Below, piece after piece: positions 1,371 to 63,300 of a stretch of DNA of 64,000 bases (positions are counted from its first letter, which is position 1; every line of letters starts with the position of its first letter). The stretch is from Amoebophrya sp. A120 (lineage: Eukaryota > Protista > Dinoflagellata), in the NCBI GenBank assembly GCA_905178155.1, contig CAJINV010000009.1, positions 1,961,373-2,025,372 on the forward strand, written 5' to 3'. The position numbers and the translations under genes were made by a program. Below the pieces are notes generated by a model that did not search any database, was not told the DNA's origin, and saw only the letters and a program-made list of their open reading frames with translations.

Positions 1371-1613
1371 TGTCCAGATTTCTGCTCCTCCTCTGTGTTT
1401 TCGTTTGCTCTGGTTAGCTGTCTGCTGCTCGAAAAATACTCGCGTCCTACTTGTGAAACGCGATGGTAAGGCAACTTTTCAAAAAAACCTGTCTTCTTGT
1501 TGCACATCTATGTTTTTCTCCCGTTCCCTAGTTTAGTCTACTGCACTCAGATCGTAACTTCTATCTCCAATCGCCGCGCGGTCTAAAAAATCGTTTCACA
1601 TTGGAACGATAAG

Positions 1614-2665: not shown

Positions 2666-5600
2666 GAGTTGGGGCGCCTCCGTCATGCGCCCAGCGATTG
2701 ATGTCGCCACCCAGGGACTGCCACGTTTGCATCGCCGTTTGGCACTCGGTCTGTTTGATGAGGTTTTCAAGAACAATTTCAGCGAGAATTATCACTACAG
2801 AGTTTCATCTCCTTGCTTAGCAGGAGCGCCATCATTCTCATCGTCGTACGACTACAGTATCGCAGAGCTGTAGTTTCAAAGAGCGAACGCCCCCTGCGCC
2901 TGCCGTACAAAAGCAGGAGAAGAGGCGAAAAGAAAATGTTCAAAATAGACTTCGTCTCACCGTGCTTTGGCCCGCCTTGAATCTTTGCCACCAGACCTCG
3001 CCGATGTAGTGTCCGCAGGTCCAGGTTCGGTGGTTGATGATCCCGAAATTTCGGTGCACCTCGAACTTTTCCGTCGTAATCATGTTTTTGATCCCCTCGC
3101 TGTTGCAGCTGATGCACTCCTATGCATTGCAAAAGTATCGCACTAGTATAAATCTCTACCATGACTAGTTATAAGTCAGAAAACCCATTACTTAATAGTA
3201 TCCCGCAATAAAAACAAACAATAGAAACGAAGAATGGAAAGGAAAAACGAAAACAAAGAATGGAAACGAAAAACGAAAACAAAGAATAGAAACGAAAAAC
3301 GAAAACAAAGAATGAAAACAAAGAATGAAAACAAAGAATGAAAAACAAAGAATGAAAACAAAGAATGAAAACAAAGAATGAAAACAAAGAATGAAAACAA
3401 AAAACGAAAACAAAGAATAGAAACGAAAAAGAACAACAACGAAATGCAGTCAAAGTGCCCAAGCCTCTAAGCGGCGAAACCTCCAAACGATGAGGCCTCG
3501 AAACGCCGAAGGAAGCAGCGAAGCCTCGACGCTGCGAAGCCTCGAAGCGGCGAAGCCTCGACGCTGCGAAGCCTCGACGCTGCGAAGCCCCGACGCTGCG
3601 AAGCCTCTAAGCGGCGAAGCCTCGAAGCAGCGAAGCCTCGAAGCGGCGAAGCCTCGAAGCAGCGAGGCCCCGAAGCGGCGAAGCCCCGAAGCCCCGAAGC
3701 CTCGAAACAGCGCAGCCTCGAAGCAGCGAAGCCTCGAAACAGCGAAGCCCCGAAGCCTCGAACAAGCAGCCAGCGAAGCCTCAAACAAGCAGCCAAGCCT
3801 CGACCAAGCAGCGAAGCCTCGAACAAGCAGCGAAGCCTCGAACAAGCAGCGAAACCCCGAAGCCCCAAAGCAGCGAAGCCCCGAAGCAGCGAAGCCCCCC
3901 GAAGCAGCGAAGCCCCGAAGCAGCGAAGCCCCGAAGCGGCGAACCCTCGAAGCAGCGAACCCACGGAGCAGCGAAGCCCCGAAGCAGCGGAGCCTCGAGG
4001 CGGCGAAGCCTCGAAGCTTCGAAGCAGCGAAGCCTCGACGCAGCGAAGCCTCGAAGCAGCAGAGCCTCGAAGCCTCGAAGCAGCGAAGCCTCGAAGCAGC
4101 GAAGCCCCGAAGCCTCGAAACGGCGAAGCCTCGAAGCGGCGAAGCCTCGAAGCGGCGAAGCCTCGAAGCAGCGAAGCCTCGAAGCAGCGAAGCCTCGAAG
4201 CAGCGAAGCCTCGAGGCCCCGAAGCAGCGGAGCCCCGAAGCAGCGGAGCCCCGAAGCAGCGGAGCCCCGAAGCAGCGAAGCCCCGAAGCAGCGAAGCCCC
4301 GAAGCAGCGAAGACCCGAATCAACGCAGCCTCGAGGCGGGGCAGCAACGTGCGAGACGAAACCGCGAAGCACGAGCCGGCGCCAGCTCGTGGCCAGAGGA
4401 AGCCCGCCAGGCCGGTGCCAGATCATGGCCAACCCGATGCCAAAGAATGAAACAGGGCCAAACCGGCGCCAGGTCGCGGCCAGGCCGGTGCCAGATCACG
4501 GCCGAACAAAGCCCGCAAGGCCCGCCGGTGCCAGATCATGGCCAAGCCTGCCAGCCGGTGCCACATCATGGCCAAGCCGGTGCCAGGTCGTGGCCAAGCC
4601 CGCCGATGCCAGAGCATGGCCAAGCCGGTGCCAGATCATGGCCAAGCCGGTGCCAGATCATGGCCAAGCCGGTGCCAGATCATGGCCAGAACCTGCCAAG
4701 CCGGTGCCAGATCAGGGCCGGGCCGGTGCCAGGTCGAGGCCAAGCCGGTGCCAGATCATGGCCAAAGCCTGTCGGGCCGGTGCCAGGTCGTGGGCGAGCC
4801 GGTGCCAGATCATGCCCAAGCCGGTGCCAGATCGTGGCCAAGCCGGTGCCAGGTCGTGGCCAAGCCGGCGCCAGAGAGATCATGGCCAAGCCAGCGCCTG
4901 ATGAGAAAGATCAGAGCCAAGCCGGAGCCAGATCACGGCCAAGACGGTTCCAGGTCGTGGCCAAGCCGCCCGGTGCCACATCATGGCCAAAGCCTGCCGA
5001 GCCGGGGCCAGATCATGGCCAACCCGGCGCCAGATCATGGCCAAGCCGCCCGGTGCCAGGTCGCGGCGAGGCCGACGCCAGATCAGGGCAAAGCCGGTGC
5101 CAGATCATGGCCAAGCCGGTGCCAGATCATGGCCAGGCCCGTGCCAGGTCATGGCCAGGCCGGTGCCACACCATGGCCAAGCCTGCCGGTGCCAGGTCGT
5201 GGCAAGGCCGGCCGGTGCCAGGTCGTGGCCAGGCCGGCCGGTGCCAGATCACGGCACGGCCGGCGCTTCCTCAGGCCATGGCCAAGCCGGTTCCAATTCA
5301 TGGGTGGCAAAGCCAAGTCGGCTCCGGGTCGTGGCCAAGCCGAAGCCGGCGCCAAGTCATGGCCAAGCCGGGGCCAGATCATGGCCTAGCCGCGCCCGCC
5401 GGCGCCAGATGAATCATGGCCAAGCCTGCCTGCCTGCCTGTGCCAGAGCATAGCCAAACCGGTGCGGAATCATGGCCATGCCTGCAAGTGCCAGGCCGCG
5501 GCCAAGCCGGTGCCAGCCAAATCATGGCCAAGGCGGTTCCAGGTCGTGGCCACGCCGGTGCCAGGTCGTGGGCATGGCCGTGCCGGTGCCCGATCATGCC

Positions 5601-6628
5601 CAAGCCGGTGCCGGACCCTGGCCACGCCGGTGTCGGGCCCTGGCCAGGCCGGTGCCCGACCATGCCCGCCCCCCGCCGCCAGATCGCGGCCCCGCCGGCG
5701 CCAGCATGCAAAATGACGGCAGCGGGCAACCTGCCCGCCGCGCCGGCCGGCGCCGGATCGTGCCAAAGCCGTTCTGGCGCTTTGAAAATCGCCGGCAGAT
5801 GGGCCTGCCTGTGCTGAAGCGCCGACAACGATTCCCCACAGAGAGACGCTGAGCGCTACTATTCATCTAGCGGAATACTATTAAGTCTGCAGGTTACTGA
5901 ACACGGGAAGCGGGATAAGGCTAGTTGCATTACAAACTGACTTAGTATTACAAATTGAATTTGTTGTAATGCGGATTTGCCTGAGCAAAAAGATTTGTAA
6001 TGCATAAACGCAATTAGTACGAGTGCGATACTTTTGCACAGGATAACTCCTGCTGGAACAGTAGACCGTCCTTCTTAATCGTGCGGTCGTCCCAATCAAA
6101 GACGATCAACCCGACACCTGTTTTGATGATTTTTATTTTTATTCCTGCTGCACCAGGATCATGACGAGGTACTGAATGTAGGACTTCTAAAGACGTTCGA
6201 TTTAATTTGTTGTTGTTCCATTTGGATTTTCTACATCAACATAACATTTGGAGGAGACGATGACAAACAGTGTGCTTGTTTTGCAACCTCAACATCATCA
6301 CAATTATCGCAATACGATCTTGCGGCGTGATTGCTCCCTTGACCGGCTTGGCGGGGACTTGCGGTTGCTGGACTGGCGGCGGAGGCGGGGGCGTTTCCAC
6401 AACCACAGGCGCCGGAGTGGTGGTCGGCGGTGGTGGGGGTGGCGGAGGCGGCGTTGTCGTGGTGGTTTCAGGCTCCGGTTCCGCCGGCGGCTCCTCCGGC
6501 GGTGGTGGTGGGGGCGGTGGCGGTGCGTCCTCCGCAGCGTCAGGTGGGGGCGGCGGCGGCGGAGCGTCCTGCGCTCCCGCACCGCGCAGGTGGCAGAACA
6601 GACCAAAATACCACAGAACCTTCTTCAT
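2666..6628 (-). CDS. Multi-exon secreted or surface protein (signal peptide, Pro/Thr-rich stalk, Cys-containing domain); 3' end unresolved
   Basis: Predicted exons 6628-6316, 6117-6046, 3115-2961 and 2750-2666. The joined reading is ...TPQDR|VGLIVFDWDDRTIKKDGLLFQQE|CISCNSEGIKNM...WWQRFKAGQST|TECQTAMQTWQSLGG. GT-AG sites flank the short introns; the 2.9-kb TIR element splits exons 2 and 3. Confidence 0.7.
3210..3440 (+). repeat. A-rich ~13-bp tandem repeat (AAAGAATGAAAAC)
   Basis: Array directly visible; most regular at 3305-3400. Confidence 0.9.
3460..4340 (+). repeat. Minisatellite of 8-bp subunits (GAAGCAGC / GAAGCCTC / GAAGCCCC)
   Basis: Dozens of degenerate GAAGCAGCGAAGCCTC units. Confidence 0.92.
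4375..5770 (+). repeat. Minisatellite of ~22-bp unit GCCGGTGCCAGATCATGGCCAA
   Basis: Dozens of degenerate copies; cleanest at 4620-4690. Confidence 0.92.
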
Positions 6629-8103
6629 CCCGATGTTGGTCCTCTCAGCAGTATTAGTGCGATGATGATGATGATGTACCCAACTGTGGGGTCTACCTCT
6701 ACACTGTGATTTAAATATATCAGCGCAAAGATCAAGAAAGAAACACTACGAATCTACTTTTTTTTCTGTAGAAAACAACACTGTAGGTTGTTTTCGTTTT
6801 CGTCTCTTCTGGTAGCTTCTATACGAAGCAAAATAAGCGGTGGATGCAATACAAATGCAACTCCTCCGGCAGACGCAGAATAGAGCTCGGCTAATCAAGA
6901 TCGCCGAAGTGGCGGCGAAAGCCGTCTCGTAAAAAGATGTTGATTGTTAGCGTAAAAAGAATCACCTCCAGTAATGAATCTGCGTATAAAATGTTGGGAG
7001 GGAGCAAAAAGAAATGCGTTGGAGGGAACAAGTAGAAAGCAACGTAATCCCAACAAGCACGCACCACGGCGGGAGCTGAGCCAATGTGAGTATGATGCTA
7101 ATTAAAATAAAGATGAAGTTTAAGTCCTCGCGCTAGCCTTTCGGGGGCTGCAATGGGAAGTCCTGGATTGAGTCAAATGATGTGTGGGAACAAGTAGAGC
7201 CCGTGAAACTTAAAACGATTGATCACTGCAATAAAGGCGACCACGTAGGTTTGTATTCGAAGGAATGATATTGCTACATTTTACTTTGACGTGAATAAAC
7301 CAGGTGACACCGACACAGAGAAAGAAAGGAGCAGCGGCCCCATACTTATCCCTCGCTTTTAAATAATATCACTTCGCTAGTATCACTCGCTCGTCTTTCA
7401 GAAGGACACTACATACAAGTTCACTACATATATTTTTCATCCACTTGTGAATTTTGAATGTGAGTACTAACGCAGATACTCGTCCTACAGGTTTCTGCGC
7501 ACATAAAATGCGGTGAACACAAAACAGTATTTCTTATTTTCGATGGCGCTCGTGGCCACGATAATTTACATGCGCCTACTAAAAATAGTAATAGGCAACA
7601 TTGTCTCGGTCGCTTACATTGTTCTGCATGATATGTGTTAATCCTGGTACTTTGCGTTTCATTCTTGTGTATTTGCTCATCGTCACAAGCAAAACAAGAT
7701 GAGGACAAATACCTGTGGAAAAACGAAAAAGGTCGCTGTCGCTGAGTGATAAGAGTAATCTAGTACTTCTACTTGTTCGCTCATGATCCCGATCGCACCC
7801 TACTGTTACTGAGCGAGAAGATTTTTGTACCGACACTGGGGGCGTGAGTCACCATTCTACCGCTTCAATGGTAAAGGGGGAGCTGAAGCTGATGCAAGGT
7901 AGGGCATGACGCGAGGGGGGCTTATGATTTATAGAGAAGGCACGGCTGTATGTCTTTCTGCGCCGACCCAAAAAGAAAAAAATGAAAGGAAGAGTAGGTG
8001 TCGCGGTTCTCCTCCGGAACCGGATCGAGGCTCCTGTCCCTATCGTATTGCTGCAGAGCAGGATGAGGACGTCGCGGAGGTTGCCAACACCCCCTAGAAT
8101 AAA

Positions 8104-11100
8104 TCAGTACCCGGCTCGGCCGTCAAAAAGTGAGCGGTTGACGTTGCCGCGCCGGGCCATGGTGCGTTTCTGCAGGTCCTTTTCCCAGAGGGGGAGTATT
8201 TGTCCAGTTCCGACGTCCATTTCGGCGACAAGATCGGCGTGGGGTCCCTCCTTCGCCCGCATGGGTAGCATGGTCAGGTGACCCTTGTACTCCTTGAAGC
8301 CCAAGTTGCCCCAATACTTCGGCGCGGCATCGTTATCGGCAGGATACAGTGTAACGATCTTGAAGCCTGAGGAAAATTGCGCACAAACAACTAGTTCCAA
8401 GTTTTTACTAGGTAAAACTGACTTTTGTATGTACTGCTCGGACCACTGTGACCAGCCTTGTTTTGCCCGAACGCATCAACATGACAATTGACCACTACAT
8501 GTGTAGTTCGAGCAATGGGTAGCTCTTAAGTAAGTCTACCTCAGTGCGGGACAACAAGGATGAGTTGTTGGGAGAACCTATTTATGCTGCAGCTACTTAG
8601 ACTTACCTTCTCTTCGCCACAGATTTTCCATGACTTTGTACATTCGATTGCCATCTCCCTGGCCTTCCACGAGCGCACTCATGTTCATGATCTGGATCCA
8701 GTAGAACGGGTTTGTTTCGGTTTCCCATTTGTTTCCCCGCGCCACTAGAGGCAAATTGTCTCGCTCCTCCTCGGTGAGCGGTCGGCAGTGGTTGACACGG
8801 CACGTCATCGCCGCCCGAACCTCGTTGGTTCGGTCTAACAACACCCAACTTTTGCACGACCATTGCCGATCCTCAAATATTCGCCTTTTCACCTGAAATT
8901 TTGTGCGCCAGTACAGCTACAGCTAGGCACAACACCACTATGCCTTTTGTTTGTCCCTCTAGATAGAGTGGATCATTTCTTATTCTTTTCCTATTTCGTT
9001 TTCATGCATGAAGAATAGACGTCAAGATGCGCCAGAGGACGTTACGTAATTTCATCCTATCTAGGTAACAGCAGCAAGAACAGCAAGGCTCTTGCGATGC
9101 ATTTTTTCTTCATCTCAACTTCCAGCAGTACCCAGGCAGCTTCATTTTTCTCCGAGAAAGTTGGCTTCGTCATGTGGCACTCGTAGCACGCTTGTCGTAT
9201 CTCATCGTTATCCGCTTCCCGGAGGTAGTACATGTCCTGTGATTTTTATTCTGGAGGTAGATTATTGCTTTTCAGTTTGTTTCATTACCGGAAGAAATAA
9301 AGAAGTTGTGGTGCAGCGAGCTACGAATTTCGTGTCTGTAGTGAGGGCGTCAGTTGAAGATAGATCAGTTCATCCGACTCGCAGTGCTCCTCAGACAATC
9401 AGAATAAACTGAGTCGCTGGCTCGCGCGATCGCGAATCATCTGCACAAGCCAAAATAAAGTACGTATTGCCCGATCTGCGATCCGTTTGCGCCCAGCTTT
9501 TTGCCTTTTTTCTTCCCCCGCTTGTTCGCGCCAGTTTGTGAGGAAACCATGGAGGACGCTGCGCCGCCGATGTCTGACCGCGACGAAGACAGCGGCTTGT
9601 TCCCGCCGGCAGCACTGGTCACGGCCGAGGACGCTCCCCCGACACCATTCACCGAGGACGCCGCAGCTGCCTTCTCTAATTTGCCTCCCGCGGATACCAC
9701 GCTGCTGCCGCGCTCCTCGTCGTCGGAGGGGACATTGTTCGTTCCCGCATTGTTCGCACCTCCGGCAGCCTCCCCGAGTGTGCTCAGGTTCTGCGAGGAA
9801 GACCCCATTCGCTGCAGGGAGGGGAGCGAAGAGGTCTTGGGTAACTTTTTCCCTCCCTTTATTTCGGCCGCCTGCTGCAGCAACTCCTGTTGCTGTTGCA
9901 GCACAAGTCTGTGCCTCGTTGCAGGCATAGTGGCCACGACCTTCTCGTCAGGTTTGGGCGGTGGTATTTGCGTGAGATTGATGTCATGCTCCGAGCGGAG
10001 GAGCTTGGCGGTCTCGTTCATCGTGCGTAAAATTGTCACTTTGTAATGCCCGGACTTGTTATGAAATTGCAAGCGTGTCGCTGTAGTTGCATAGAGACGC
10101 ATTTCAAGAATTTGCCCTGGCCCTGGCTTTCGTACGATCAATCATGTGCATGCATATGCAATCATTAACTCATACATTAGATATGATTTAGTTGTTGTAA
10201 TTGAAATTGTATGCTTTTCCAGTTGGAGGTTCTCTCGCTGCACAAGAACAAAAAAACGCGTTGAAGCCGCGAGCCGCGGCCGTCTGCTGTCATACAAAAT
10301 TGATGCGGCTCCTGAGCGAACTACGGGACTTTTGCACGACCGGGGGATAGTTATACAGCTCTCTGGTCTGAGGGATCGCAATCTGAGACTTCATCGGAGG
10401 CATTTTTGGAAACGCCGCATTGGATCCCACTGGTGGTTGCAGCTGCGTCGCACCACCAGGAAGAACACTCGCTGAAGGTGCTCCTCCCGCTGCGCCTGAG
10501 GAAGATGCTCCGCTCGGAGCCGGAGGTTTGCTGGTGGTCGCTCCGGCCGCAGCTGTCGCTGCGAAGAGCGATTTTTTCTCTTCGGGTTCGACGCTCTTCT
10601 TTGGCCTGATGCGCAGCGTCGGACGGGCCTTCTTGCCGGTCCCCGTTGTTCCAGCGTTCTGTTGCAGTTGTTCCTGTCCTCCGGCGCCCTGTACGGACTC
10701 CATTGAGATTCGTGGCCTCTTGAGTGCGGGCTGTTGGGCCGCAGACGCTGATGAGGCAGTGCTTCCCGTTGCTAGCGGCACGGCGGAACGCTTTAACGCG
10801 GCAGCAGCAAGACGAGGTTGGGTCGTGCTTTGGAAAGCAGCGCTGTAGCCTGCTGGGTAGGCAGCTCCTGATTGCGCAACAGCGGACGCTTGCTGGAGCA
10901 GTTGTGGACCAAATCCGAAGGAATTAACCGGCACTGTCTGTGCCTGCATCATCGGGAGCGGAGCACCTGGTGCCGCGAGTTGTAGTCCCGCTCCCGTGTA
11001 GGCTCCTGGAAGCTGCTGCGCTCCTTTACCTTTTGGTGGAGCAGAACTTGAATTAGCCCCTTTCGCGAGGACCCCCGGAAACAATACAGGTCCGAGAGAC

Positions 11101-12953
11101 GGGTTCATGGCGACCAGCTGCTGCTTTTTGCGATTCGCCTCCTGTTGCGCAAGGAGCGCTCGTCGCTGCGCCTCTTGCATCTGCCACTGCAAAGTCTGGA
11201 CGCCATTCACCAGTTCCAGTTGCCGCTGCTCCCACTGGTAATTGGGGTGGTCTTCTACCTCGGCCTCGAAAGCAGTCTTCCGGCAATTTTCCTGGGTCAG
11301 GTTCGTGTGAAACACAGGCAAAGCGGTCAAATACGACGATTCACGAATCTCTTCGCTCTCGGCGTGGGCGTCCGGGAAATGCAGGTTTTCCTCGGGCTTT
11401 TTCTCCAGCTCCGGTTTCATTTTCGCATGAATCTCCATCTTTGCGATTGTACTTGCTCCCACCTTGCTGCTCGCGTGGATTTTTTGCACTATGCGCCAGT
11501 TCGCCAGTCGCGAGAGGTACCAAGGAGCTCCGCAGTGGTCCACCTCGTGTTCTTCAGTCGCTGCATTGGGCGCAACCGCTCCCGTTCCCGCGTCTTGCAT
11601 CTTGACGTTTCCGCCATCGTCAACTGCATTTGCTCTGAATTCAGCCTTTTCGTTTGCGATCTTCTGTTGCGTGTTTGTCGAGAGGTCTTCCTTTGTGCGC
11701 ACCTTCTGACTCCGCACGATGAACTGTCCTGTCGAAATAGCGATGTCGTCGCGAAAGACGGGGCGCCACTGATGCAAGGGTTCTTGTGGGTCTTCGCGAT
11801 GCAAATCTTCCATGCCACCCTGACCGTTAGACAGAGAGGTGGACGGTACAGCCCCTCCAACTCCGAGAACAGCCGGGACCTTCGACGAGCTGGCTGCGGC
11901 ACCAACTCCCGCAACTACTGACGCTGGCGGTACTAGTAGAGCACCTTGACTAGTCAGGACAGCACCTGGCACAGCAGCGGGCCCTCCTGCGCCAAGCGCA
12001 CCGCTTCCGGCGAAAGCTCCCGTTCCTGGATTGGCAGCGAAAGGCTGCTGCATTCCGAAACCCATCTTCATCTGCATAGTCGGGACTGGTTGACGAGCAC
12101 CGGCGGGTACTGCCAGTTGAGGATGCTGCACCAGGTGCGCAGGAAGCGGGTTTGCGACAGGCACAGCAACCCCCGCACCGCGCTGGGGCGGAACAAAAGT
12201 AGTCGCACTCGTGGTTCCGGGGCGCTTTGCGTTTGCCGAGAGTACAACTTGTTGCCCAAGGACTCCTGTGGAAGAACCAACACCAAGTGGAGCAGCTGCC
12301 GCCACGTTCACGACGGCTGCGGTCGATCCAGGCAAAGGGCGTCCGATCGTTGCAGTAGACGATGAAGATGCAGCTCCTCCTCCTTGAACTAAGCTAGCTT
12401 GTTGCAGTGCCGGATTCTGAACAACTTTTTTCCCTGGCCGCAGCTGCTCACTGTTGTCGTTCTTCAGTTTTTTGTCGACGCCCCCATCTTCAAGCTCAGA
12501 CATGTCCAGGTTATCGAACAGGCCATCAAACTCGTCCCCGGCATTTCCGTCCATCATGCCTGTGGACTTGGTTTTGTCGTCCCGGTTCTGGTGGTTTGAG
12601 TTCACGTAATCGCCTTGCTCCTCAGGAGCTAGTACTACGTTGCTGCTCTTTTTTGCGTTTTCCGACAACGACGAAACCTCTACCTCTGCTGAGCAGGTAC
12701 GAGCGTGATCCTCGTGTGCCTTGAAGGAACTCGGCTCGGAGGACGGTGGTCGCGGGGTGGAGGTAGTACTACTTGCGGCGGTCGTGGCTCGGGAAAAATC
12801 GTGACCTTGTTCTATTTCCTCTCGCCTGAAACCGCAGCGACGCGGAGAGGTGCTGGCAGCCCCCTCACCAGAAGCACTTGTAGAGGTACAACGACCGCAG
12901 AAGTCTTTGGTATTTCCCGCGTCTTTTATTCGGTCCTCACTGGAGGACGTCAT
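8104..12953 (-). CDS. Large low-complexity protein with C-terminal GCN5-like GNAT acetyltransferase domain
   Basis: Predicted exons ~12953-10326, ~10051-9464, 8892-8607 and 8366-8104. GT-AG introns 9463-8893 and 8606-8367 join in frame (IGQY|VKRR; RREG|FKIV). Motif A is VEGQGDG; motif B is TLYPADNDAAPKYWGNLGF (compare Gcn5 TYADNYAIGYFKKQGF). The first intron is uncertain. Confidence 0.7.
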
Positions 12954-15037
12954 GATTTTCAGTACATTTGGATTGTGGTGATCGACACCCCATCGAGAAA
13001 TGGTCGCACTTGTTGACTGCCTTGAAGCGTGCACTTGATGCGGTAGTGAAAAAATAGCGGCCCGGTGGCACTTTTCTCTTCTACGAAAATGATAAAAATC
13101 ATCTATTCGAATTTGAGTGACAAGAAGCAAAAACTGCCGGCTTAGCGGTATATGACCCCATCGAAGAGGACAACCAGAACCGCAGGATGAGCCGCGTGGC
13201 GTATAGGGCGTAAAGCCATAATCTCCTAGAGATGTAGGATGAAAGAGCACTGCGACATTTTGGTGGCTGGCTTATTTCACGATATTTTTGTCCACGGGGA
13301 TCTTTTTTATCATCTTCAAGATGCCCGTCCGCTTGTTTTCACGCACGGGAAATGCCTTTCACAGGAATGAAGGAATGGAGTAAGTGTGTATCTTCGTGGT
13401 CGATCACGACAGAAACGCCAGAAGGCCGTGCTGAAGAGACCACTGACAGGCTCCAAGAAGAGACTGCTTGACCTTTGATGAGACAAGCAGCCCCGCCCAG
13501 ATGAAGTCTTCACTGCTTGCTGGTGTTGTTGTCAACACGATATTTATCATGTCTTGACGTGCGAGCGTAGAAACAAAAATAGTTGCGGTGTGTCACTATA
13601 AGCAGAAATATGCGTATCTTACTCTACTTTTTCAATATTCTCGTGATACTGACATTCTGAAAATTCCTGTGAATTTCTAAAAACGTCTCTAGCCAAATGA
13701 CCACATGTACGAAAAATATTCTCACATTCACAATATCCAGCGCGCTAAACTTTCTGCTGTCTCTTTCGGCCTGTTGTCGTGATCTTTTATAGGTGGGTCT
13801 TTCACAAAAAATGCATCTGCCAAAGGTAGCTCCCTGGTGAGAGACGAGGTAGTTCTGGTCGTTGCTTTTTGCTTTTTTCAAAGACGATCAATTTCTGCAC
13901 GCGGCTCCGCCTACGAGCGTGCTTCTATTGTTCTTTGCAGCTGGTGATCCTACCACGTACATCAATCACGTCGACGACACCTTTGGTATGGTAGCAGGAT
14001 CGATGTCGCCTGCGATGAAGCCACGCCGGCTTTGCTTCTCCGAGGTTAACCCTGCTGCTGGACAACTTTATCGAAAGCGCAACTACTACCGCTACCGGAA
14101 TATTGCAATTTTTGAGGGTCGAAAAAAAGAGCTTCTGAGGATCGGAAAAAAAAGCCTCTCAGGGTTGCCGGAGTCCTGACGTCAGGCTGCGGATCCGACC
14201 CTGCCGAAAGCCTGACCGCACTGCTTCGTCTCGTCGTGAATAGCTAGTAGTAGTACAACCTAAAAAAAAAAGCGGGACTTGGGGGCATTTGGGGGCGATT
14301 TTTCAGAGGATACAGGCTGAGCAATAGCATGATCTGCAAAAAATAAGAGCTCTCGTCATGGTGCACACTGCTGCTACTAGTGCTTGCGCTGGTAGCACAA
14401 AGCCGTACTAGTCGCAGCAGTGTGCGCCATCATGCAGAAGCCTTTTCGCAGCATATCACACCCAAACAAAGAAAAAAAACTGCGGGAGTTGCGGAAGAGA
14501 CGGAGGGGATTTTGTGGAGGAAGGACGGCACGGGCCAGCCTCCGCGGAGGGTACGACTACGACGCCGCTGGGAAGCGGCTGACCCGGAAGATCGAGCTGC
14601 GCCAGCTTTCCGACCACAGCGAAGCCGTCGAGCTGAAAACCGGAAAAGCTTCGCGGACGAAGGCGCTGAAGAACAACACAGCTCTATTTCTATTTTGTTG
14701 CATGGCCACGGGGCTTCTACACTAGTAGTGCCATCCGTGGCACAAGTTTTTGCTCGTCGCGGCCCTGGTCTTCTGGCCCTGGGCAAGAAGATTAGGACGA
14801 GCAGGAGGACTGACAGATGGCGTGGCGGCCCGGGTGGGGACGGGACCCAACCCCCCCGCGGCACGCCGGCCCCCTCATACATTTCTTCATCGGCCGGCCG
14901 CGTCGCCACGGACGTAGAGGCGCTTCCGGGCCGACCTTTTGGGCCGGCTATTCGGCCGGGGCTTGCTTGCTCCGGCTCTCGCCGAGGCTTAAAAAGTAAG
15001 CAAACCGCTTCGCGACGTATGTCCTTTTGGCTCCCGT

Positions 15038-15160
15038 CCGAACTCGAAAAGTAGTCGAATAATACCCGGCAAAGCTCTCGCCCGAACTCGAAAAGTAATC
15101 CATCACATCCGACAAAGCTCTCGCCCGAGCTCGCAAAGTGGTCGAATTAAATTCGACAGA
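15038..15160 (+). repeat. Three ~43-bp direct repeats inside the transposon
   Basis: CCGAACTCGAAAAGTA...CAAAGCTCTCGC units. Confidence 0.75.
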
Positions 15161-15269
15161 AATATTACGAAATATTTCGCGAGGCTCGTGCGAGGCTCGT
15201 GCACGAGCCTCGCGACAGTTTTGAACAAAAAACCACCAAGGTCACACACCTTGGCTGTGGTTTTGGGCT

Positions 15270-53400: not shown

Positions 53401-53958
53401 CGTTTTCGTGTTGTACCAGTAACCGGACTTGGCGTTTGGGTACAGCTGTTTCATCTGCTGCAGGGTCTTGCAAGACTTCGGATCTTGTTTGTACTTCTGC
53501 ACCATTGGATTCAGAGGCGGTTGCTCTTTATTGCCGTTTTTATTTGCATTCCCATTGCTACCCCCTCCGGCTCCTGCTGATATCCTACTTACCTGCCCCT
53601 GTCCCAATTCGTGCCCGTAGCAGGGCACAAAAACCCAACGGTTCTGCTCGAAAGACTTCTTTGCGGCGAACTCGATCAGTGCGCTCTGCAGCTTTTTTGG
53701 TTTCGAACAGGACTCCAGCAAACCCTGCATGTGATCGTGAAACTCGTCCAGGTCGATCTTGGAATCGGAGCCCGCGGACTCCCGAAAGATCTCATCCAGC
53801 TCGTTGGGCGACAAAAAAGACCCGATCGCCTGGGCGAGGTACCGGAGCACCGGGCCGCACTCGTCGATGGAAAGCGTACCGTCCTGAGAAACATCGAGCA
53901 GATAGAAGACCGTCGTGATCAGGTCCTCCATCTCCTCGTAGGCAGTCTTCGCCGGCAT
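41492..53958 (-). CDS. Giant (~3,970 codons) protein with N-terminal EF-hands and ~11 FDGxW/Y repeats, interrupted by three introners
   Basis: Exons 53958-50703, 50552-44424, 44139-44068 and 43947-41492 sum to 11,913 nt, divisible by 3. Junctions read TTD-TQS, TDR-NPS and GFG-LNG. EF-hands are DVSQDGTLSIDE and DSKIDLDEF. Confidence 0.85.
43953..44067. mobile_element. 115-bp TAT...ATA introner
   Basis: TIRs TATCCACAGAAAAAGACCCATCCACATCCA and TGGATGTGGATGGGTGTTTTTTCCTGGATA; TSD AGCCG. Confidence 0.92.
44145..44423. mobile_element. 279-bp TAT...ATA introner with perfect 24-bp TIR
   Basis: TATCCTATGTAAAAACGTCCCCAC and GTGGGGACGTTTTTACATAGGATA; TSD TCCTG. Confidence 0.95.
50558..50702. mobile_element. 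145-bp TAT...ATA introner
   Basis: TATCCTGTGCAAAAGTATCGTACT and AGTACGATGCTTTTGCAATGCATA; TSD TGTCC. Confidence 0.95.
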
Positions 53959-56085
53959 TTTATTGCTCGTTGTTCAGGGTCGTCTATAATGACAAAGACC
54001 TAGTAAAAACGAACTCTAGATCGATGAATGATCTAGGCTATAGGCTTTAGCTGCACCCACACCGCACCAGGTGGGCTTACTTAAAAAGCCGCGCCCGCAT
54101 AGAGCGGGCCTTGTTCTACATAAAGACAAATCGCGGAGGTCACAGTATCAACAACATGGCGAGGGCTATTGCATGATGCGCACGAGGTAAAATGACAGGT
54201 AAGCATCATTTTAACTACTTCACACTTGATAACGAAAAATCTTCTGGGGCTTGAGTGGCTAGCGTGGGTGGGTCGTAGTATTTTTCGTACTAACAATTTA
54301 ATATCCTTCAGGTAACTTAGCTCGCTGTATGAATACGAAAAAAAAATGATGGGCCGATCGGGAGAGTGCCCCTCGTATTTGGCGAAAAAACACAAGAAAA
54401 AACCAAACCAACGACGAACGATTGAAGGCACTTGCGACGGTCCCTTTTCACCCTGTACGACAAAGGGCGTGCCGGGGGTTGAAAGATGATGATGATGATG
54501 ATGAACGACAGGTACAGTGAGCGTGTTGTGAAGAAACAGGACGACAAAGGACGACACATTACGCAACACATGCGAAATGAAAAAGTATCGATACGGACGG
54601 TTTTTTTCGATTGCAAAGATGACTCTAGTAGGTACCACAAGCACACCGAGGGTTCTTCAAATGCAAGATACAAGATCGATCCCAGCACAAACGCGACTAC
54701 AACTACAAGCATAGGGTGCAGCTGCGCGGCCGTGGAAATAACGAATTGCTGCATCATGATGATTTACAACTTGAACTTGTTCGTTGCAGTTCAAGTAAGT
54801 TTATATTTTTGTCTTGTTTCTCTTTCTACGCACGAGCGACGGCGTTCTTGTCGATGCCTACGGACTACACAAACGACAGGACGACCACAAATGAAGGAAG
54901 CAAAATACCACCAGTACGACATGACACTGAGCCACGTGGTCCATGTTGCATTCACATGTTTCTCTCCGCGAGGTGCAAGTGGAAGATGACCACTGCCAGA
55001 AGCTAGTGTGGATTCGTGTTCGTTGACGCTTTTGCGCCGATAGCGATAGTTCCACAGAGGGATAAGTTGGTTTGCATAGAGCTGAGGCTGCGTACGTACG
55101 CAATGCTAGTGTAATATTCTGGTGCATCAAAATGCAAATAATCTTAAGGATAAATTCTTACATGTTATTCAAGCATTCAACAACATTTACATTCGTTATA
55201 AATCGCAATGCAATTATGGTGCACGTGCAACAACATCACATGATCATGATCTCACTTAGTACAGTGGTTTTACAGAGGGCAGGGGCTAACACATGCACCG
55301 CCGACTTCAACGTCAACCACGTCAAAATCATCGAGCAAGCGATAAAAGCCCATATCTATATACAAATTGTGTCATATCGTCATTGAGAAATCAAGTTACA
55401 GGGCAGGGCAATCATTAATTGGGTAAATTTGGACAATCGCTCAGTTGATTCTAGGAATTTTATTTTTTTGATTTTTTTTCCTCGCTGAGACCCAAAGACG
55501 CCGCTGAGCTCGAAGAGGCTAAATGAAGTTCGAGTTTCATTTTTACAATAGGTTCTTGACTTCAAAAATAGTCTTTACGATTGCACATGGTGCAGTTGTA
55601 AAAAAATGTAGTGTACGAGGGAGTATGTAGTGTAGGTATCAGCAATAAAAAAGTTGTTCATCTCCATGTCCACTGCTCATGGGAGACATCTTCCTGGCGT
55701 TACGCCGGTATAAGCTTCGAGACAAATAAAAGTACACTGTTGTGACAGGGATGACATCTAGCTCGGAGAAGTGAGAGAAGTGACACTCGTGCAACAGAAA
55801 TCGCATTGACACGACTGAGCGCAGTATCTTAGCGGGAGTGAAAAGCTCGTCGGCGTCGGGTCTGCTGCTTCATTGGTTTTGCCTCTTCTTCTCCTGCTGC
55901 TGTTGTGCCTGAGAATTTGTCTCTTCAAAAATCATCCCACAACTCAGACATGGGAGTCTCTTCAGTCGTCTATGAGGCGAGCGCTTGGACGACTAGCAGC
56001 GAGGACATGATTTTGTTTTTGATGATACTTCTTATATGTTAATTTTCTTCCTGCTTTGACTTATAATTTTCGCTAGCTGTCATGG

Positions 56086-59000
56086 CTATGTATTGATTTG
56101 CAGGCATCGAAGACCGTCAAGCACCGCAGCGATGCCGATGGATTCGTCACAGCCACCGGCTTGTTCTCCTACAGTTTCACCGTCTTTCTCCGACGAGGAG
56201 TGTCGTCCTGCAGCTTTCTGCCCCGCACGCACCACTCGCGTCAGATACAGCAAGGCCTCATCAAGCGGTCCTGCTTTCGGGGTGTCCCTGCCATCGATCA
56301 TCTGCGAAAGCGTGAGCGGACTCATCGGGTCGGGTGACCGCGCGCGTGCGTCGCAAAAATGTTCCCAAGATGAAAACACGGGAAACCGGTCAGACTCTTC
56401 CTCGTCGATCTGCATCTGCTCCTGGTCTTCATCACAATTCTTCGCCTCGTCGCGCCCCCGCGAGGAGCCAGCCGCCACGTGGTTCATCTCCGCGTTCGTA
56501 AAAGAACCCGTGTCGACGTCTTGTTCCAGACACAAGTCCCGATGCTGTGACCGTTTGCCGCCCAGGTCGCTTTCCACCGCCGTTCCACCAAGGCAAAGCA
56601 TGCCAAGAAGTTCGCGACCAAATTCTCTGCTGGGCATCATGTTCCACAACGAGGAGACCATGCACGAGTCGTGACTTTCAGTTTCGTTTCCAGAATACTC
56701 TCCAGCACGTGCCGGCGAACATTCGTCCTTCATCGTGTGAGCTTGTTGTTGTTTTATTATCTCCAGTTTTCTCATTATCATTTGCTGCAGAATGTTTGCC
56801 TGGAGAAACTCCACTTTCCGCTTCTCCAGCACCTGCCTCACGTACACCTGGTTGCAGTCGTGTCTCCGCAAGAGTGCCCGTTCGTGCAGCTGCTTCCACT
56901 CTTTGTCTATCTGCTCCGCAGTCCAGCGTCTGCCCTCGTCCAGTTCGCACAAGTCACATGGCAGTTGCAGCCCCCGTCTCGCGATGCACAATAAAGGGAG
57001 GTCTACTCTGGCGTAAAACTCCTCGCACATCACCTGTCTATCCCGCAGGAGCTCGGCGAAAACGGGTGCAGAGTCAAGGCGGCGACGCGCGTGTTCCACC
57101 AGGTCGCGGAACAAAACGCGACCAAGCACCAGGCGGCGGTGTTGATGGGCGGGGAGTTTCGGCTGCAACACCTCTTGCGCTATGCTGTGCAAAAGTATCG
57201 CACTCGTACTAATTGCAACCATGCATGACAAATCTTGTTTCTTAGCGAAATCAGCATTACAAATTCCATTTTTCCTTCTGGGAAAATTTGTATTGCGATT
57301 CATGCTAGTACGATACTTTTGCAATGCATATGCGCGACGAACTGCTGCTGCTCCACTTTCTCCTCAGCGGTCAACTCCTCGTCGTCCAGAACTTCATTGG
57401 AAAGCCGGCGGCGCAATCCGTCGAATTCCCGCTCGAGATTCACGAAGTACTCTGTCAACAAGCTCGCCACGCGAGCCGAGGCGGGATTTGAAGACCGAAA
57501 TACCAGGTGGCTCTTAGACGTACTTGCACTTCTTTGCGATTGCGACAGCGACTCTTCATCCGTAGAAGAACTACCTTGCTGTTGCTGTACGACAGGAGGA
57601 GGTCGAGAGCCTTCAGCATCCGGCTTCGAAGCAGCACTACTTGTGACTGCAGCACCGCCGCTGCTTGTACCCACGGTGCCCGCGCCGCGTCCTCCTGCTG
57701 TTCTTGTTGACTCAGTGCCTTCACAGGAAGATGTTGAAATCGGCTCCATTATGCCAAAGCCTGCCCTGAAATGATGGAGCTCCAAGGCGTACAGGAGCAA
57801 CTTTTCGACTCTCTCACGATGCATCTGCAACGCGCCCGCGTCATCGCCAAGCAGCGAAAGCTGTCGTTCCTGCTCCTCTTCCGCGAGGAGTGTGTCGCAC
57901 TGCTTCAGAGTGTTTAGCAGGTCCTCGAGAAACGTCGTGCCCACGATTGAGTCTGTTCTCGCGTCAGGACGATACTGCCTCTCCAGGAGTTCGCCCGCGT
58001 TGACCCACCGGTCGTCTTGAAGCAGGTGTTTGTACGCAACGTCGAGTGCCTTGAATTGGTCGCCGATGGGATCGGCATCGGGTTCTGCTGGAGCGTCAAG
58101 TCTATAGCCCGCGTGGCCTTGCGCTTGTGCCTCCATCTCCATCTCCTCCTGGTCAAGGACGTCTTGCTTTTCCGACCGCACCGCAGCCGTCAAGGCAGGG
58201 CTGGTTTGAGCCGATCCGCTACGACTAGTAGCGGGGGAACTTGTTCTGAGCGAAGGAGCGGGGCTGGAGGCGAGTTGCCAGGAAAAGCAAGGCGCCGCAG
58301 ACGAGCTCGAGCAGGAGCTAGAAGACGAGAAAGCACCATCATCTGCAACATTGGAGATCGCGTCTTGGCCGCTTGCCCGCTGGTGCCCGTCCTTCATGAT
58401 CTGGGGTTGTTGTAGTTTTTCGTGTTCCTGTTTCTGCAAATAAAAAGGCGATGCTCGTTGTCGTGCGTCAAGAGGACGTAAGAACGCCGCATTAATCGTC
58501 TCATCTCCGCAATAAACTACATCTTGCACAGCACCAGCACTCCTATGCACTTGCACGTCACGCCCTTCTAGTCCTTCTTTTGCCTTCACAAGAAGGGATG
58601 TTACCGACCGGAGTTTCTTGCTCCCGCGGGCTGGGCTGCTAGCGCTAGGCGTTGTAGACTTCGATGAAGAGGTCGGAGCAACGGTTTCTGCATAGGGCGA
58701 TCCGCCTGATGTCGCTCCGGGCGACAGCACTAGGGAGGCATTGGAGGGAGCATCCTCCTCCCGTGATGCGAAATCCAGAAACTCGGCAATGCCAGCTCCA
58801 CGGTCTACAACTGTTGTATTAAGTGTGACAGGACGAGAAATCTTCGGCTGGCGAAGGATCTCCTCAGTGGGGTCTTCCCCAGTTCCTCGTACTTCTACTT
58901 GTGGAGGTCCCCCTGTGACTCCTTGCGTGGTGGCTTGCTCACTCGATGGAGAGCCCGTACTAGATTGGTGATGTTGATGCTCTGCTATTGTTTTCAAAAA

Positions 59001-59246
59001 AGAAAGCTGCGGTTGTTGTACGCCACGCGCGGCACCAGATATAGAACAAGTAGCGGGCACTAGTAGCAGAAATGGCAGCTTCATGAACGCGAAAATTGGC
59101 CGTGTTCTGCTCCTTGTTCCGGTCATACTGTTTGTTGCGACCGCGCTCTGTCGTCTTCTCGTGCGGACGGGGTTGCTGGAAAACTTCCGGGTAATTCCGG
59201 AGTTTTTCTCATCCGAAGCTGGTGCTGGAAGAGTTACACTGCGCAT
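56086..59246 (-). CDS. Unknown ~1,000-aa probably secreted protein interrupted by one introner
   Basis: ORFs 57300-59246 and 56086-57324 join in frame (QQFVA-QEVLQP) after removing 57181-57330 plus one TSD. Signal-like segment MKLPFLLLVPATCSISG. The 3' end is uncertain. Confidence 0.75.
57181..57330. mobile_element. 150-bp TAT...ATA introner (same family as 50558 and 3121)
   Basis: TATGCTGTGCAAAAGTATCG and CGATACTTTTGCAATGCATA; TSD TGCGC. Confidence 0.95.
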
Positions 59247-60367
59247 TTTGTTCTTGCCAATTGGTTTTTAGTTGCTTTTCTGAGTGAAGGCAAGGTGAGA
59301 CAGGCCCTGCCTGGCGGGGGTACGAGAATGAGAATTAACAATACAACAGGGAAGCGAGAGGTTTGCAACAATCGTGGCGCGACCACATGTAGATGTACTA
59401 ACACGACGGAAGAAAAATTCAAATGGTATTTAGTACTTAATACGACTGATTGCGATTGATCATACACAGGGCTCAAGACATTTGCGTTTGCCACCTTCAA
59501 TTGAAAAAAATAATAAGAAGCAGGGGTACAACTTAATCAAGAAAAATAATCAAACACAAACAGCAGTCAACACCTAAAAAAATCATCAGTTGAAATCCCA
59601 ACAAGATAATTGCAGCAGCAACAACATCATCACGGGGCTGTAAAAATAAATCTCGGAGGGTAGCAGGCAAATAATGACACAAGAGCTTCAAAAAAAATGA
59701 AAAAGCGTGCCTCATATAGTGGCGCGCGAGGAAGTTAAAAGCGTTACAATGAATGAAGAGCAAAACTGCAACTGGGGGAAAGGAAAACTGCAAATCTCTT
59801 AACCCTTAATGATATTACTTTCCTGATTGTGATTCACATTATGAGTCTGATTGGAAGATGAGAAACAAAAATAAAACTATGTATAACTAAATAAAAGATA
59901 AAACGGCATGCGTGCGGCACACTGCGTGCCCGTGGTGCTGGAGTAAGTTCAACACCAGTAGTTGAGAGCGACAGACAGGCAACTCCGGCTGCTGCCGCGA
60001 CTAGAAGTGCCAGCCCCCGCTGTGGCACTTTCTTAATGCGGATTATGTGGCGAATCAATGTTTGAAAGTGCCCGATTTCAGATCTGTAGGCCAAGAAAGA
60101 TACGAGCGTCAATCTATCAGGTAAAGGCACCTGTGTTCTACCAACCGCTCTTTCCTCGAAGATGATCCTCAATGATGTTCTTTAGTCTGGGTGGCTGTAG
60201 CTGTTACACAATCAGGATCTGCTGCTGATTCTGTGCTGGCACCTCCACCTCTTTTCGAAATAGAAGACCTGTGTGAAGTCGTGCCAGCTCCTTCTGGTCT
60301 TAGCAGCTTCCTCGCAGAGGGGAGTTATGGGAGATGAGCGAGGAGTTTCTTGTTCTTTCACTTGCAG

Positions 60368-63300
60368 TTAGACAACGAAATGCTTCAGTCCATACTGGAT
60401 TTTTGGGCGGACCAGAGACTCCAGAACTGAATACGGCACAGTCAAATTTCTATCCCTTCCGAGCGCCAGGCGCTTGGAAAACTCTTCCGTCAGATGGACG
60501 CCACGGAATCGCTCCTCGCCAAAGTCGTCGTAGGGGTTGTCCAACGGCAGGTCGGGAACCCCGATTTGCAGATTGTCGTACGTGACCCCCGCTTTCCGCA
60601 AGAAGTCTGAGTAGTACCCCATGCTCCGACGGCTCGGCAACCGATCGTAGTGCGGGCTTGACGATGTCGGACTTGTTGTTGGCACCTGGCGTTGTGCGGC
60701 AGCTCTTGTTGTGCTGATCGGAACACCAGTTTCTTGACTTCCTTCCGCTCTACCCGTAGCAAGATATGGATCGAGATTTTTTTCATCACCCGCCGAGTAG
60801 TACGTGGCGATGGTGTCATTTCCAAGCCTTTTGCAATGGATTTCCTTGTACCGGTCGGGGTACAGCCGGCGACGCCGCAGAACCTCGTGGTGGGCATAGG
60901 AGTTCTGCTATTCGCTGAAAATCGTTCATCCCCAACCACATTTTGCATGACAAAAGTCGGCTCCCACTTCACTCGCGCGCGCGCGCGCACGACCATGTCC
61001 TGCATGACAAATTGGATGGGACTGCTTGAGTTCCAGGGAATATCTGCGTCCGGTCCCAGGAAAGGGATATGCTGCTATCTGCGGTGCGGAACACCCAAGG
61101 TTCCATCTCTTGCCACATCATGCCCTTCAACGCGTCGCACCGCCAGTGATCCTGTGATTTCTTTTCCTGCTTTTCCACTGAATTTATGTCTGCACGATCT
61201 TCAGGCTCTACATTTCGTAAACTACCACGTTTCTGCTCTCCCACTTCGTCCTTCTCCGCACCGGTGGCGGCGACCGCGGCCCCTTCGCCGAGACTGATTT
61301 CGATCATGTAACTTTTGTTGCCCGGTCGCATGAAAATGGTGTTCACGATGTCGGCTCCGTGCATGGCAATCACGATGAAGGCCCGGTGCATCAACCGCAT
61401 CTGCTCGCAGGGCGTCTTCGAGGTCATCTTCACGCGCTGAAACTCGATTTGCGTGCGAAATTCTTTGTATTGCAGCTGGAATCTCTGCAAAATCTCCTGC
61501 AGGTTCGTGATCTGCCGGTTGTTGCCATCTTTTTCCATAAACAAGACCAGAAGCTTGCTGCTTGACGTTCTTCGCGGCATTCCCTTTTCAAGATTCTGGT
61601 CTGGTGCGGATCTTCTAGTACTATCCGGTTGTAGTTCTCTTTTGCTCGTTGGATCTTGCACGTGGTGGCTGTCCTGGTTTATGATTCCGCATTCCGCCCA
61701 GACCAGCTCCCGGAATCGTGCCAGTGCTTCTGGGGTGCTGATACCGTCGTGGGCGCGCTGCACGACGAAACTCGGATATCCAACCTCCTGGATTGTGGTA
61801 ACCGCGGCTGAAAGAAATTTCAATCTCTTCCGCTTTCTCTTTCGAAAAGTTGTTCCCCCGTTATTTGATGGTTCTATAGGTGAAGAACCTGGTCTCTGGC
61901 GTGGTGGTTCCCTCGTGCCACTCGTAGTCGACATAGAGAGCAGGTGGGGCGGATCAGCACCCGCGTAAAAGGCTCGCTCCTCGTCGTCGAGCATGACTTC
62001 GCCTAGGCTACTATCTCGGAAAGCGTCAGCAGCATTCTGCTCAGGCGCTGTCTCGAATGTTGCTTCAACAGCCGCTGCATCACTCTGTGCAACCTCGTTG
62101 GCTGAAAGGCTATGATGAGGCTTTTGCGCCGTCTCGTGTGGCGTGGTGAGCAAAGATGTTGAACCATGATCGTCGTCCGCGTCCTCAGCGTCTATTCCGT
62201 AAGGTGATGTGCCATCGGTGTGCTCGGCGCTGCCTCCGTCGTGTTCCATTTCTTCTTTCGGCACCGCGTAATCGTAGCCATAAAGCAAAAACTGGTGCTG
62301 CCGTTCCGTATCATACATGGGAACGTTTTGCTTCGACGCGTCAAACTTGCTCATGGAACTATCAACATCTTCACTCCTACTCTCTACTTCATCGCCGTTA
62401 ACGTCGGTGTTCGAAGATGTTTTCGGTAGCGGGTCGTACTTCCAATCGATGCAGTGTCTCCCGGTGATGCTTGTTTTGATGAATTCCCTGTCCAGAGGCC
62501 CGTGGTAATCCATGAAGTAGGGCGGATCCAGGTACATGCAGAACTCGACCGCGCTCCAAATGTGGGCGAATTTCTCGCGCAAGTGCTTGAACAAAACGTC
62601 CAGCAGGAACTTGTTGTGCGGCAACAGCGAGTGAAAGTCCTGCAGAAATTTCGTTGGGAGGATAAAGGGCTGCAGGTTTTCCCGCTCGATCCAGGTCAAA
62701 AACCAGTCACTGGTGAAGAGCTCGAAGAACCAGATCACCATCCGCGTGAAGTGACTGATGTTCTGCCACTCTGAGGCCATGACCACGATCGTGTTGCTAA
62801 ACTCCTTCACGGGATTCACCGGGAAAACGTGGTAGGGGTCGAAAGGGAGCTTGTCATCTTGCTCGTGTTCAACAGCAAAACGGCTCGAGGAGGATATTGA
62901 CGGTGTACTGCTCTGAAGATCGTCGGGCGCTTGTAGTTCGTTCACCTGATCACGTCCTTGAAGATCCTCTCCTTCACTACGAAGAACACCATGATCACCA
63001 GTTGCGCCCAGTCGTTCCTTCTCCCGATCCACCTCTTCCGCGAAGGCTTTCCGCCAGGTCTGGCGGTGGTAAAACTCCACACTGTCCTCGTCTTGAATGA
63101 TCCCGCTCAGGTTCGACACGAACGGAAAATCCTCGATCGGCCGCCCCGTGCGGGACGCGATCAGGTCGTTACTCGGGTTGCCCCGGCGAAACCAGATGTT
63201 GCTCGCGTCCCGATCCGGAATGCGGATCACCTTTTCGCGGATCATGGTGGACAGAAAGTTAGTCACCTCCGTCACCGTTACCGCGGTGAAATTCTTATTC

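What the first reader, a model, noticed from the sequence alone, without database searches (positions are those of the whole stretch)
3121..61042. Family of TAT...ATA / 5-bp-TSD transposons acting as precisely removable non-canonical introns
Seen: seven elements (3121-6045, 14069-16871, 43953-44067, 44145-44423, 50558-50702, 57181-57330, 60909-61042) all begin TAT, end ATA, have TIRs and carry an exact 5-bp TSD (ACTCC, AACTT, AGCCG, TCCTG, TGTCC, TGCGC, TCTGC). Six interrupt exons of four genes and bring stops or frameshifts. Removing the element plus one TSD restores the frame each time. Known: repeat-flanked introner elements and non-canonical introns are described in Amoebophrya. Inference: one transposon group with several TIR subfamilies is creating introns, and a removal machinery reads the element ends.
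Basis: partly seen in the sequence, partly recalled or inferred. Interest (0 to 1): 0.92.

Follow-up and report, generated by a model that had tools for sequence, protein, structure and literature searches.

The report
Known Amoebophrya transposon-introns, removed exactly
These are real but already published jumping-DNA inserts of the marine parasite Amoebophrya that sit inside genes and are missing to the base from assembled spliced transcripts (one insert is 2.9 kb long) without normal GT-AG intron ends, likely cut at a fixed offset from their own ends by a loosened splicing machine.

Summary
Observation confirmed: all seven elements have TAT...ATA ends, inverted repeats and exact 5-bp duplications; six interrupt coding exons. 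They are the published introner elements of Amoebophrya A120 (Farhat 2021: TAT+7 nt+AAA ends, 3-5-nt direct repeats); element 1's host matches an NCBI A120 protein that already lacks it. Likely-RNA contigs skip element 1 (2,930 nt) and element 6 (155 nt) exactly, while a DNA run keeps them. Element 7's spliced form is colinear with two orthologs, though one contig retains it. Elements 2-5 remain untested by RNA. In 255 copies from a second record the 5-bp rule holds, orientation is unbiased and GT-AG is rarely available. No transposase lies in the window; the removal machinery is inferred. This scan reported the same system and register on many other windows of this genome. Already known; interest 0.3.

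The parts
3116..6050 (.). Element 1 (3121-6045, 2,925 bp) with 5-bp TSDs 3116-3120 and 6046-6050; ends of the ~150-bp family of elements 5/6, interior of 13-, 16- and 22-bp tandem repeats
   Evidence: skipped 3115->6046 in X4, X5, X6 and kept in DNA run X1
2666..6628 (-). Host gene of element 1 (proline-rich, 358 aa in NCBI's model; continues left of the window); GT-AG introns 2751-2960 and 6118-6315
10055..10354 (.).
   Evidence: joint 10055->10351 (295 nt) in X4 and X6, absent from X1
7603..13348 (-). Host gene of the eighth element; three further GT-AG introns; 1,388 open codons after splicing
14064..16876 (.). Element 2 (14069-16871, 2,803 bp), 152-nt arms 91% complementary, no AAA motif, no Pfam-recognisable ORF; host context unproven
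43948..44072 (.). Element 3 (43953-44067, 115 bp) with TSDs
   Evidence: not covered by the RNA runs laid
44140..44428 (.). Element 4 (44145-44423, 279 bp) with TSDs
   Evidence: not covered by the RNA runs laid
50553..50707 (.). Element 5 (50558-50702, 145 bp) with TSDs
   Evidence: not covered by the RNA runs laid
41492..53973 (-). Giant host ORF of elements 3-5 (N-terminal EF-hand pair, weak Pfam hit); 3,975 open codons once all three are removed
57176..57335 (.). Element 6 (57181-57330, 150 bp) with TSDs; no GT/GC/GA-AG register
   Evidence: joined 57175/57331 with no other letters in X3 record 10 and X4 record 16
56086..59267 (-). Host ORF of element 6, 1,008 open codons after removal
60904..61047 (.). 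Element 7 (60909-61042, 134 bp) with TSDs
60368..63596 (-). Host ORF of element 7, glycosyltransferase 61 domain (PF04577); colinear with two orthologs across the site

Best explanation
These are non-coding, inverted-repeat DNA transposon copies (Amoebophrya A120-type introner elements) that inserted with a 5-bp duplication and are absent, with exactly one duplication copy, from assembled spliced transcripts; they are likely cut by the host's own, relaxed spliceosome at a fixed offset from the element ends. Shown: anatomy; exact removal of elements 1, 6 and the eighth; retention in DNA; no GT-AG needed. Inferred: (1) a DDE-type transposase encoded elsewhere made the 5-nt staggered cut; (2) the intron is N+TAT...ATA+NNNN, so the element's own TA supplies the +2 U and +3 A of an ordinary donor; (3) the paired arms bring the two ends together in either orientation, standing in for U1 and AG recognition.
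For: Element 1 is skipped 3115->6046 in 3 of 3 likely-RNA runs laid (X4, X5, X6; two samples, one study), in the same contig that lacks two GT-AG introns; X1 shows no such joint and reads into both ends. Element 6 is skipped in 2 of 2 contig RNA runs and has no GT/GC/GA-AG register. Element 7's spliced junction aligns without gap to P0003 and the A25 protein P0004. End motif TAT-N7-AAA at 11 of 14 ends equals the published A120 motif (PMC7789003 sec. 11). Eighth element: the mRNA takes base 2 from the upstream and base 5 from the downstream repeat, so the cut lies 2, 3 or 4 bases in. All 9 predominant A120 non-canonical motifs in the paper's Table S4 begin N-T, as a cut after base 4 predicts. 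RNA-supported canonical donors here have +2 T in 5 of 5 and +3 A in 4 of 5. Second record (154 loci): 98 of 142 anchored copies have an exact 5-bp repeat, 128 at most one mismatch, other lengths 3-10 at most 2 exact; orientation 24:26 among main-family copies and a GT-AG register in 4 of 111 oriented copies; repeat mismatches fall on third codon positions 28 of 45 times (p 9e-5), and at repeat base 4 the upstream copy gives the better codon in 7 of 7. Arms pair more stably on the transcript strand in 83 versus 44 copies. The paper found U2, U4, U5, U6 and most spliceosomal proteins but no U1 in A120.
Against: No experiment here identifies the catalyst; contigs cannot show lariats, strand or level. 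Only one element constrains the cut, to three positions; the codon test is weak (base 5: 8 versus 4; bases 1-3 near even) and uses a strand caller checked only on its training ORFs. The eighth element's very ends are not predicted to pair (z -0.82) and by sequence alone it scores no better than shuffled hits, so either end pairing is dispensable or its assignment is wrong. One X4 contig (depth 4.2) retains element 7 whole. Elements 1, 4 and 5 do offer a GA-AG register. G-U versus A-C excess is absent over arm positions 4-20 (64:54) and rests mostly on position 21, found post hoc. The 3' end has no conserved AG, which a spliceosome normally needs. The RNA runs are one study, their kind is a guess by the tool, and they may be the data behind the public gene models.
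Confidence: 0.65

Rival explanations
1. Same elements, but removed by a separate hairpin-guided, non-spliceosomal machinery, as proposed for euglenid nonconventional introns.
For: No conserved acceptor; either orientation works; four young window elements fold end to end with z -2.4 to -8.6; U1 not found; euglenid introns with TIRs and TSD-like repeats are excised as circles (PMC11282704 passages).
Against: A cut after base 4 reproduces +2 U/+3 A of the host's ordinary donors; the decayed eighth element is removed exactly although its ends are not predicted to pair; spliceosome components are present.
Confidence: 0.25
2. Ordinary splicing at canonical, GA-AG or nearby cryptic sites explains removal.
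For: Elements 1, 4 and 5 offer GA-AG within the repeat; cryptic in-frame GT/GC-AG pairs lie 3-9 nt away for several.
Against: Element 6 and the eighth are removed as exactly length+5 with no such register; G[TCA]-AG is available in only 11 of 111 oriented copies, any AG in 60, and G after ATA in 37; the paper puts GA-AG at 1.5% in A120.
Confidence: 0.04
3. The giant gene with elements 3-5 is a recently killed pseudogene and those three are never removed.
For: Frame restoration is automatic for recent insertions; no RNA support for these three was obtained.
Against: Three insertions of different families and no other lesion in 3,975 codons; element 5 belongs to the family of the removed elements 1 and 6.
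Confidence: 0.04
4. Elements are excised from DNA (somatic elimination or polymorphic empty sites), not from RNA.
For: TA-like ends and exact removal recall ciliate IES excision (recalled, not tested); the tool only guesses that X3-X6 are RNA.
Against: DNA run X1 reads into both ends of elements 1-7 and has depth 0 at the joints for element 1 and the eighth; the skipping contigs also lack GT-AG introns.
Confidence: 0.02

Closest known systems
Introner elements / non-canonical introns of Amoebophrya sp. A120 (Farhat et al. 2021, PMC7789003; Gozashti et al. 2025, PMC12130899)
   Same: TAT+7 nt+AAA inverted ends, 3-5-nt direct repeats (5 bp in Fig. S19 legend), RNA-supported removal without GT-AG, strain-specific families; the host proteins match A120 entries; Gozashti's table lists 58 A120 families, TIR-type ones over 1 kb among them.
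   Different: Nothing in kind. The paper leaves the intron border 'unknown' and variable and limited its intron analyses to 40-1000 bp; here a 2.9-kb satellite-filled member is removed exactly and one junction narrows the cut.
Euglenid nonconventional introns (review PMC11282704, passages)
   Same: TIR-paired ends, TSD-like repeats, no GT-AG, lengths to several kb, MITE origin proposed.
   Different: Different end motif (CAG/CTG inside the ends, Y|R borders); excised as circles; not tested here.
Fritillaria borealis non-canonical introns (as described in PMC11282704; primary paper not seen)
   Same: MITE-derived introns with TIR and TSD removed by a tolerant U2 spliceosome.
   Different: Dominant AG-AC/AG-AT borders; animal lineage.
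hAT5 DNA transposons (5-bp TSD; PMC12730594 passage)
   Same: 5-bp TSD; TA start fits hAT-like termini (recalled).
   Different: No transposase in this window, so membership cannot be tested; not known as intron formers.

Membership tests
Amoebophrya A120 introner elements | Inverted repeat starting TAT, 7 variable nt, then AAA | tested here: met
   11 of 14 window ends; element 2 (both ends) and one end of element 7 lack AAA; 224 of 255 copies in the second record have it at one end or both
Amoebophrya A120 introner elements | 3-5-nt direct repeat at the exon/intron border | tested here: met
   7 of 7 exact 5 bp; 98 of 142 exact in the second record
Amoebophrya A120 introner elements | Removed from transcripts without GT-AG | tested here: met
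   elements 1, 6 and the eighth; 0 of 7 have a GT-AG register; elements 2-5 untested, 7 indirect
Amoebophrya A120 introner elements | Repeated in the genome, hairpin-forming, no transposase inside | tested here: met
   DNA depth over element bins in the thousands against about 27 elsewhere; folds; no transposase Pfam hit in the ORFs tested
Amoebophrya A120 introner elements | Host is Amoebophrya of the A120 type | tested here: met
   53-aa exon 100% identical to an NCBI protein labelled Amoebophrya sp. A120, whose first 208 aa equal the spliced model
U2-type spliceosomal introns | GT/GC/GA donor and AG acceptor | tested here: not met
U2-type spliceosomal introns | Lariat with branch A, dependence on U2/U6 | not testable with these tools
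   needs raw reads or bench work
hAT5 transposons | 5-bp TSD | tested here: met
hAT5 transposons | hAT transposase in an autonomous copy | tested here: inconclusive
   none in the window; no genome held; unpaired ends not followed
Euglenid-type nonconventional introns | CAG/CTG near the ends and excision as circles | tested here: inconclusive
   end motif differs; circles not testable

The most novel reading that the evidence does not exclude
Amoebophrya removes these introns with a second, U1- and AG-independent (possibly non-spliceosomal) system that measures both cuts from the transposon's own TAT...ATA ends, in either orientation and across at least 2.9 kb of arbitrary interior, and RNA-level selection now shapes the arms (U-G favoured over C-A at arm position 21, 29 versus 3 in the main family, in both orientations).
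Probability: 0.25. Interest if true: 0.85.

Novelty: already known. Interest (0 to 1): 0.3.

Why it matters
The system itself is published, so the finding adds little as a discovery. What stays open in print is how a cell removes tens of thousands of introns with no shared splice dinucleotides. A fixed cut read from the transposon ends would turn every insertion of this family, in either orientation and of almost any length, into a harmless intron, explain the runaway intron gain, and give a direct test: predicted lariat or circle junctions, and reporter introns with altered TAT, ATA or arm pairing. Element 1 (2.9 kb, abundantly represented host contig) and the decayed eighth element are good test substrates.

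Tried and rejected
No genome is held for the window nor for the metagenome loci, so no genome-wide scan or transposase hunt was possible. No holder on record as RNA was listed; X3-X6 are guessed RNA. Elements 3-5: host gene not covered in X3 or X4, no verdict. Element 2: low depth in the two bins holding its ends and none inside could be a transcript skipping it or arm copies from elsewhere; 5 joints were not displayed; no verdict. My first idea, that the element's last A plus a G of the repeat forms an AG acceptor (4 of 6 window cases), failed: G follows ATA in 37 of 111 oriented copies, about the flank frequency, and the eighth element excludes that cut. Direction of change in repeat mismatches gave no usable signal, and no alternative created a stop codon. 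Empty DNA sites were not found: the search with element 1's exon returned only the A120 protein; orthologs for element 7 are proteins, so their genes' intron state is unknown. Rfam gave 0 matches at gathering score. A relaxed scan for more decayed elements returned only the eighth, at a score that shuffles also reach. No nested element with clean ends and TSD could be defined inside element 1. Loci of the second record share no flank with the window, but whether it is a different strain is unknown.
Full report
Observation. All seven elements are at the stated coordinates with TAT...ATA ends and exact 5-bp flanking repeats. A blind scan of the window for any segment with an exact 5-bp repeat and arms of at least 15/24 gave 21 candidates; the 7 that begin TAT are exactly these, and five shuffles gave none beginning TAT. 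Six lie in minus-strand open frames, which become 3,975, 1,008 and 1,029 codons long once element plus five bases are removed; element 1's host becomes a 208-aa prefix. This is expected of any recent insertion, so I looked for RNA and ortholog evidence.

Identity. The ends read TAT, seven variable bases, AAA at 11 of 14 ends. That is the motif that Farhat et al. 2021 give for Amoebrophya-type introner elements of Amoebophrya strain A120, together with 3-5-nt direct repeats (PMC7789003; I saw the abstract, passages, sections 10, 11, 12 and 16, and supplement passages with the legends of S19-S25 and Tables S4, S5, S7; not the figures). A 53-aa exon next to element 1 is 100% identical to an NCBI protein labelled Amoebophrya sp. 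A120 (the only candidate), and that protein's first 208 residues equal my spliced model, so element 1 is already treated as an intron in public annotation. Gozashti et al. 2025 (PMC12130899; passages and 6 supplement rows; 2 of 14 files not searched) list 58 A120 introner families, several TE classes, mostly non-canonical borders, some over 1 kb.

RNA. Ten runs were listed, none of the holders on record as RNA. On 42600-62400, contigs of X3 and X4 (one sample) join 57175 to 57331 with no other letters, that is element 6 plus one repeat; DNA run X1 reads into both ends of elements 3-7. On 1-19900, X4, X5 and X6 (two samples, one study) all skip 3115 to 6046, 2,930 bases, in the contig that also lacks two GT-AG introns; X1 has depth 0 at that joint. 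The contigs are therefore spliced RNA, and a 2.9-kb element filled with tandem repeats is removed exactly. For element 7, X4 record 18 stops at 60903 with 30 letters unlisted and record 20 starts at 61043, which fits a spliced form, but record 19 retains the whole element. Independent support comes from proteins: the spliced junction is present in database protein P0002 and aligns without a gap to P0003 and to the A25 protein P0004. Elements 3-5 were not covered, and element 2 gave no displayed joint.

Where the cut lies. With perfect repeats the junction can slide over six positions; none of the seven has a GT-AG option and only elements 1, 4 and 5 have GA-AG. One search revealed an unreported non-canonical intron of 295 bases. 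It is a 290-bp TAT...ATA element (10060-10349) whose flanking repeats differ at bases 2 and 5; the transcript takes base 2 from the upstream and base 5 from the downstream copy, so the cut is after base 2, 3 or 4. Earlier unchecked notes of this scan propose a cut after base 4; my one junction is compatible with that and rules out my own first idea of an AG acceptor after base 1. All nine predominant A120 motifs in the paper's Table S4 start N-T, which is what N+TAT predicts, though those borders depend on the aligner. With that cut the intron starts N-U-A, like the host's ordinary donors (+2 T in 5 of 5, +3 A in 4 of 5). The eighth element's ends are not predicted to pair, whereas four young elements fold end to end, and its assignment rests on the RNA joint, not on sequence score.

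A second record. A scan of metagenome contigs with the main family's end motif returned 154 loci, all from one public record (80 with up to 1.5 kb of flank, the rest about 300 bases). They hold the families of elements 1, 3, 4, 5 and 6 at other sites; whether this is another strain is unknown. Of 142 anchored copies with a partner end, 98 have an exact 5-bp repeat and 128 at most one mismatch; lengths 3, 4 and 6-10 give at most 2 exact. A de novo finder gave 255 elements and none in three shuffles. Removal of element+5 leaves a coding-like open frame in 113 of 232 with enough flank, against 18-23 for off-frame removals. Host strand was called for 111 of those 232 with a codon model checked only on its training ORFs. 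Among them main-family orientation is 24:26 (12 ambiguous), GT-AG is possible in 4 and G[TCA]-AG in 11. Repeat mismatches fall on third codon positions in 28 of 45 cases, showing that host exons are under selection; the upstream copy gives the better codon at base 4 in 7 of 7 and the downstream copy at base 5 in 8 of 12, while bases 1-3 are near even. Arms pair more stably on the transcript strand in 83 versus 44 copies. This comes largely from arm position 21 (U-G 29, C-A 6; p 0.003 after correcting for 27 positions); positions 4-20 show no excess (64:54). It was found post hoc, the copies are related, and strand-biased mutation is an alternative.

Mechanism. Shown: TIR elements with a 5-bp duplication, kept in DNA and removed from RNA as length plus five without GT-AG, at up to 2.9 kb. 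Inferred: insertion by a cut-and-paste transposase encoded elsewhere (no Pfam transposase among the window ORFs tested; hAT5 is a precedent for 5-bp duplications, PMC12730594 passage; other scan notes name candidates that I could not check), and removal by a relaxed spliceosome at a fixed offset (0.65), since the paper finds U2, U4, U5, U6 but no U1. The main rival is a separate hairpin-guided system as in euglenids (0.25; PMC11282704 passages).

Novelty. The class, organism, end motif and exact removal are in print. Six literature searches and passages of PMC9860276 showed no paper that fixes the cut position or the catalyst; the 2020 preprint 10.1101/2020.10.14.339549 was seen only as a listing, its journal version not at all, and unseen figures (Farhat Fig. 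3, S19-S23) may already imply the register. The scan has reported this system and the register on many other windows of this genome. Verdict: already known, interest 0.3; the small additions are the 2.9-kb exact removal, one direct constraint on the cut, orientation neutrality in a second record and a testable U-G bias.

Noticed in passing
window 1-2665: The transcript of element 1's host leaves the window at a GT donor at 2665 (loose end at 2666 in X4, X5, X6), so 1-2665 is part of an intron over 2.6 kb; it holds plus-strand ORFs (1-1185, 1587-2225), the first with Cys/His-rich stretches, perhaps the tail of a retroelement (impression; no significant Pfam hit).
   Followed up: partly
window 3166-5900: The interior of element 1 is multicopy in DNA (depth 270-1770 against about 27), has an inner inverted repeat near 3186-3206 and 5871-5890, and sibling copies join about 3162 or 3194 to about 5896-5901, so a family with variable satellite-filled interiors exists.
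   Followed up: partly
window 14069-16871: Element 2 has its own 152-nt arms, inner inverted repeats at 15266-15326, 15399-15486 and 15622-15709, and no relative among the 255 copies of the second record; RNA depth hints that it may sit in a long 5' UTR.
   Followed up: partly
window 60896-61072: An X4 contig of depth 4.2 retains element 7 whole beside a likely spliced form of depth about 5; possible inefficient removal of the element with the weakest arms.
   Followed up: no
window 18000-28236: Multi-exon DDX60-like helicase gene (PIN-like DDX60, DEAD, Helicase_C hits) on the minus strand with no TAT...ATA element detected, in line with the published scarcity of such introns in conserved genes.
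   Followed up: no
L022, L030, L036, L054, L079: Family ends with no partner end within about 1.5 kb in the second record: candidates for long or autonomous elements.
   Followed up: no
L001-L154: Insertion phase is uneven: repeat starts at codon phase 2 in 66, phase 1 in 43, phase 0 in 42 of 151 oriented copies.
   Followed up: no
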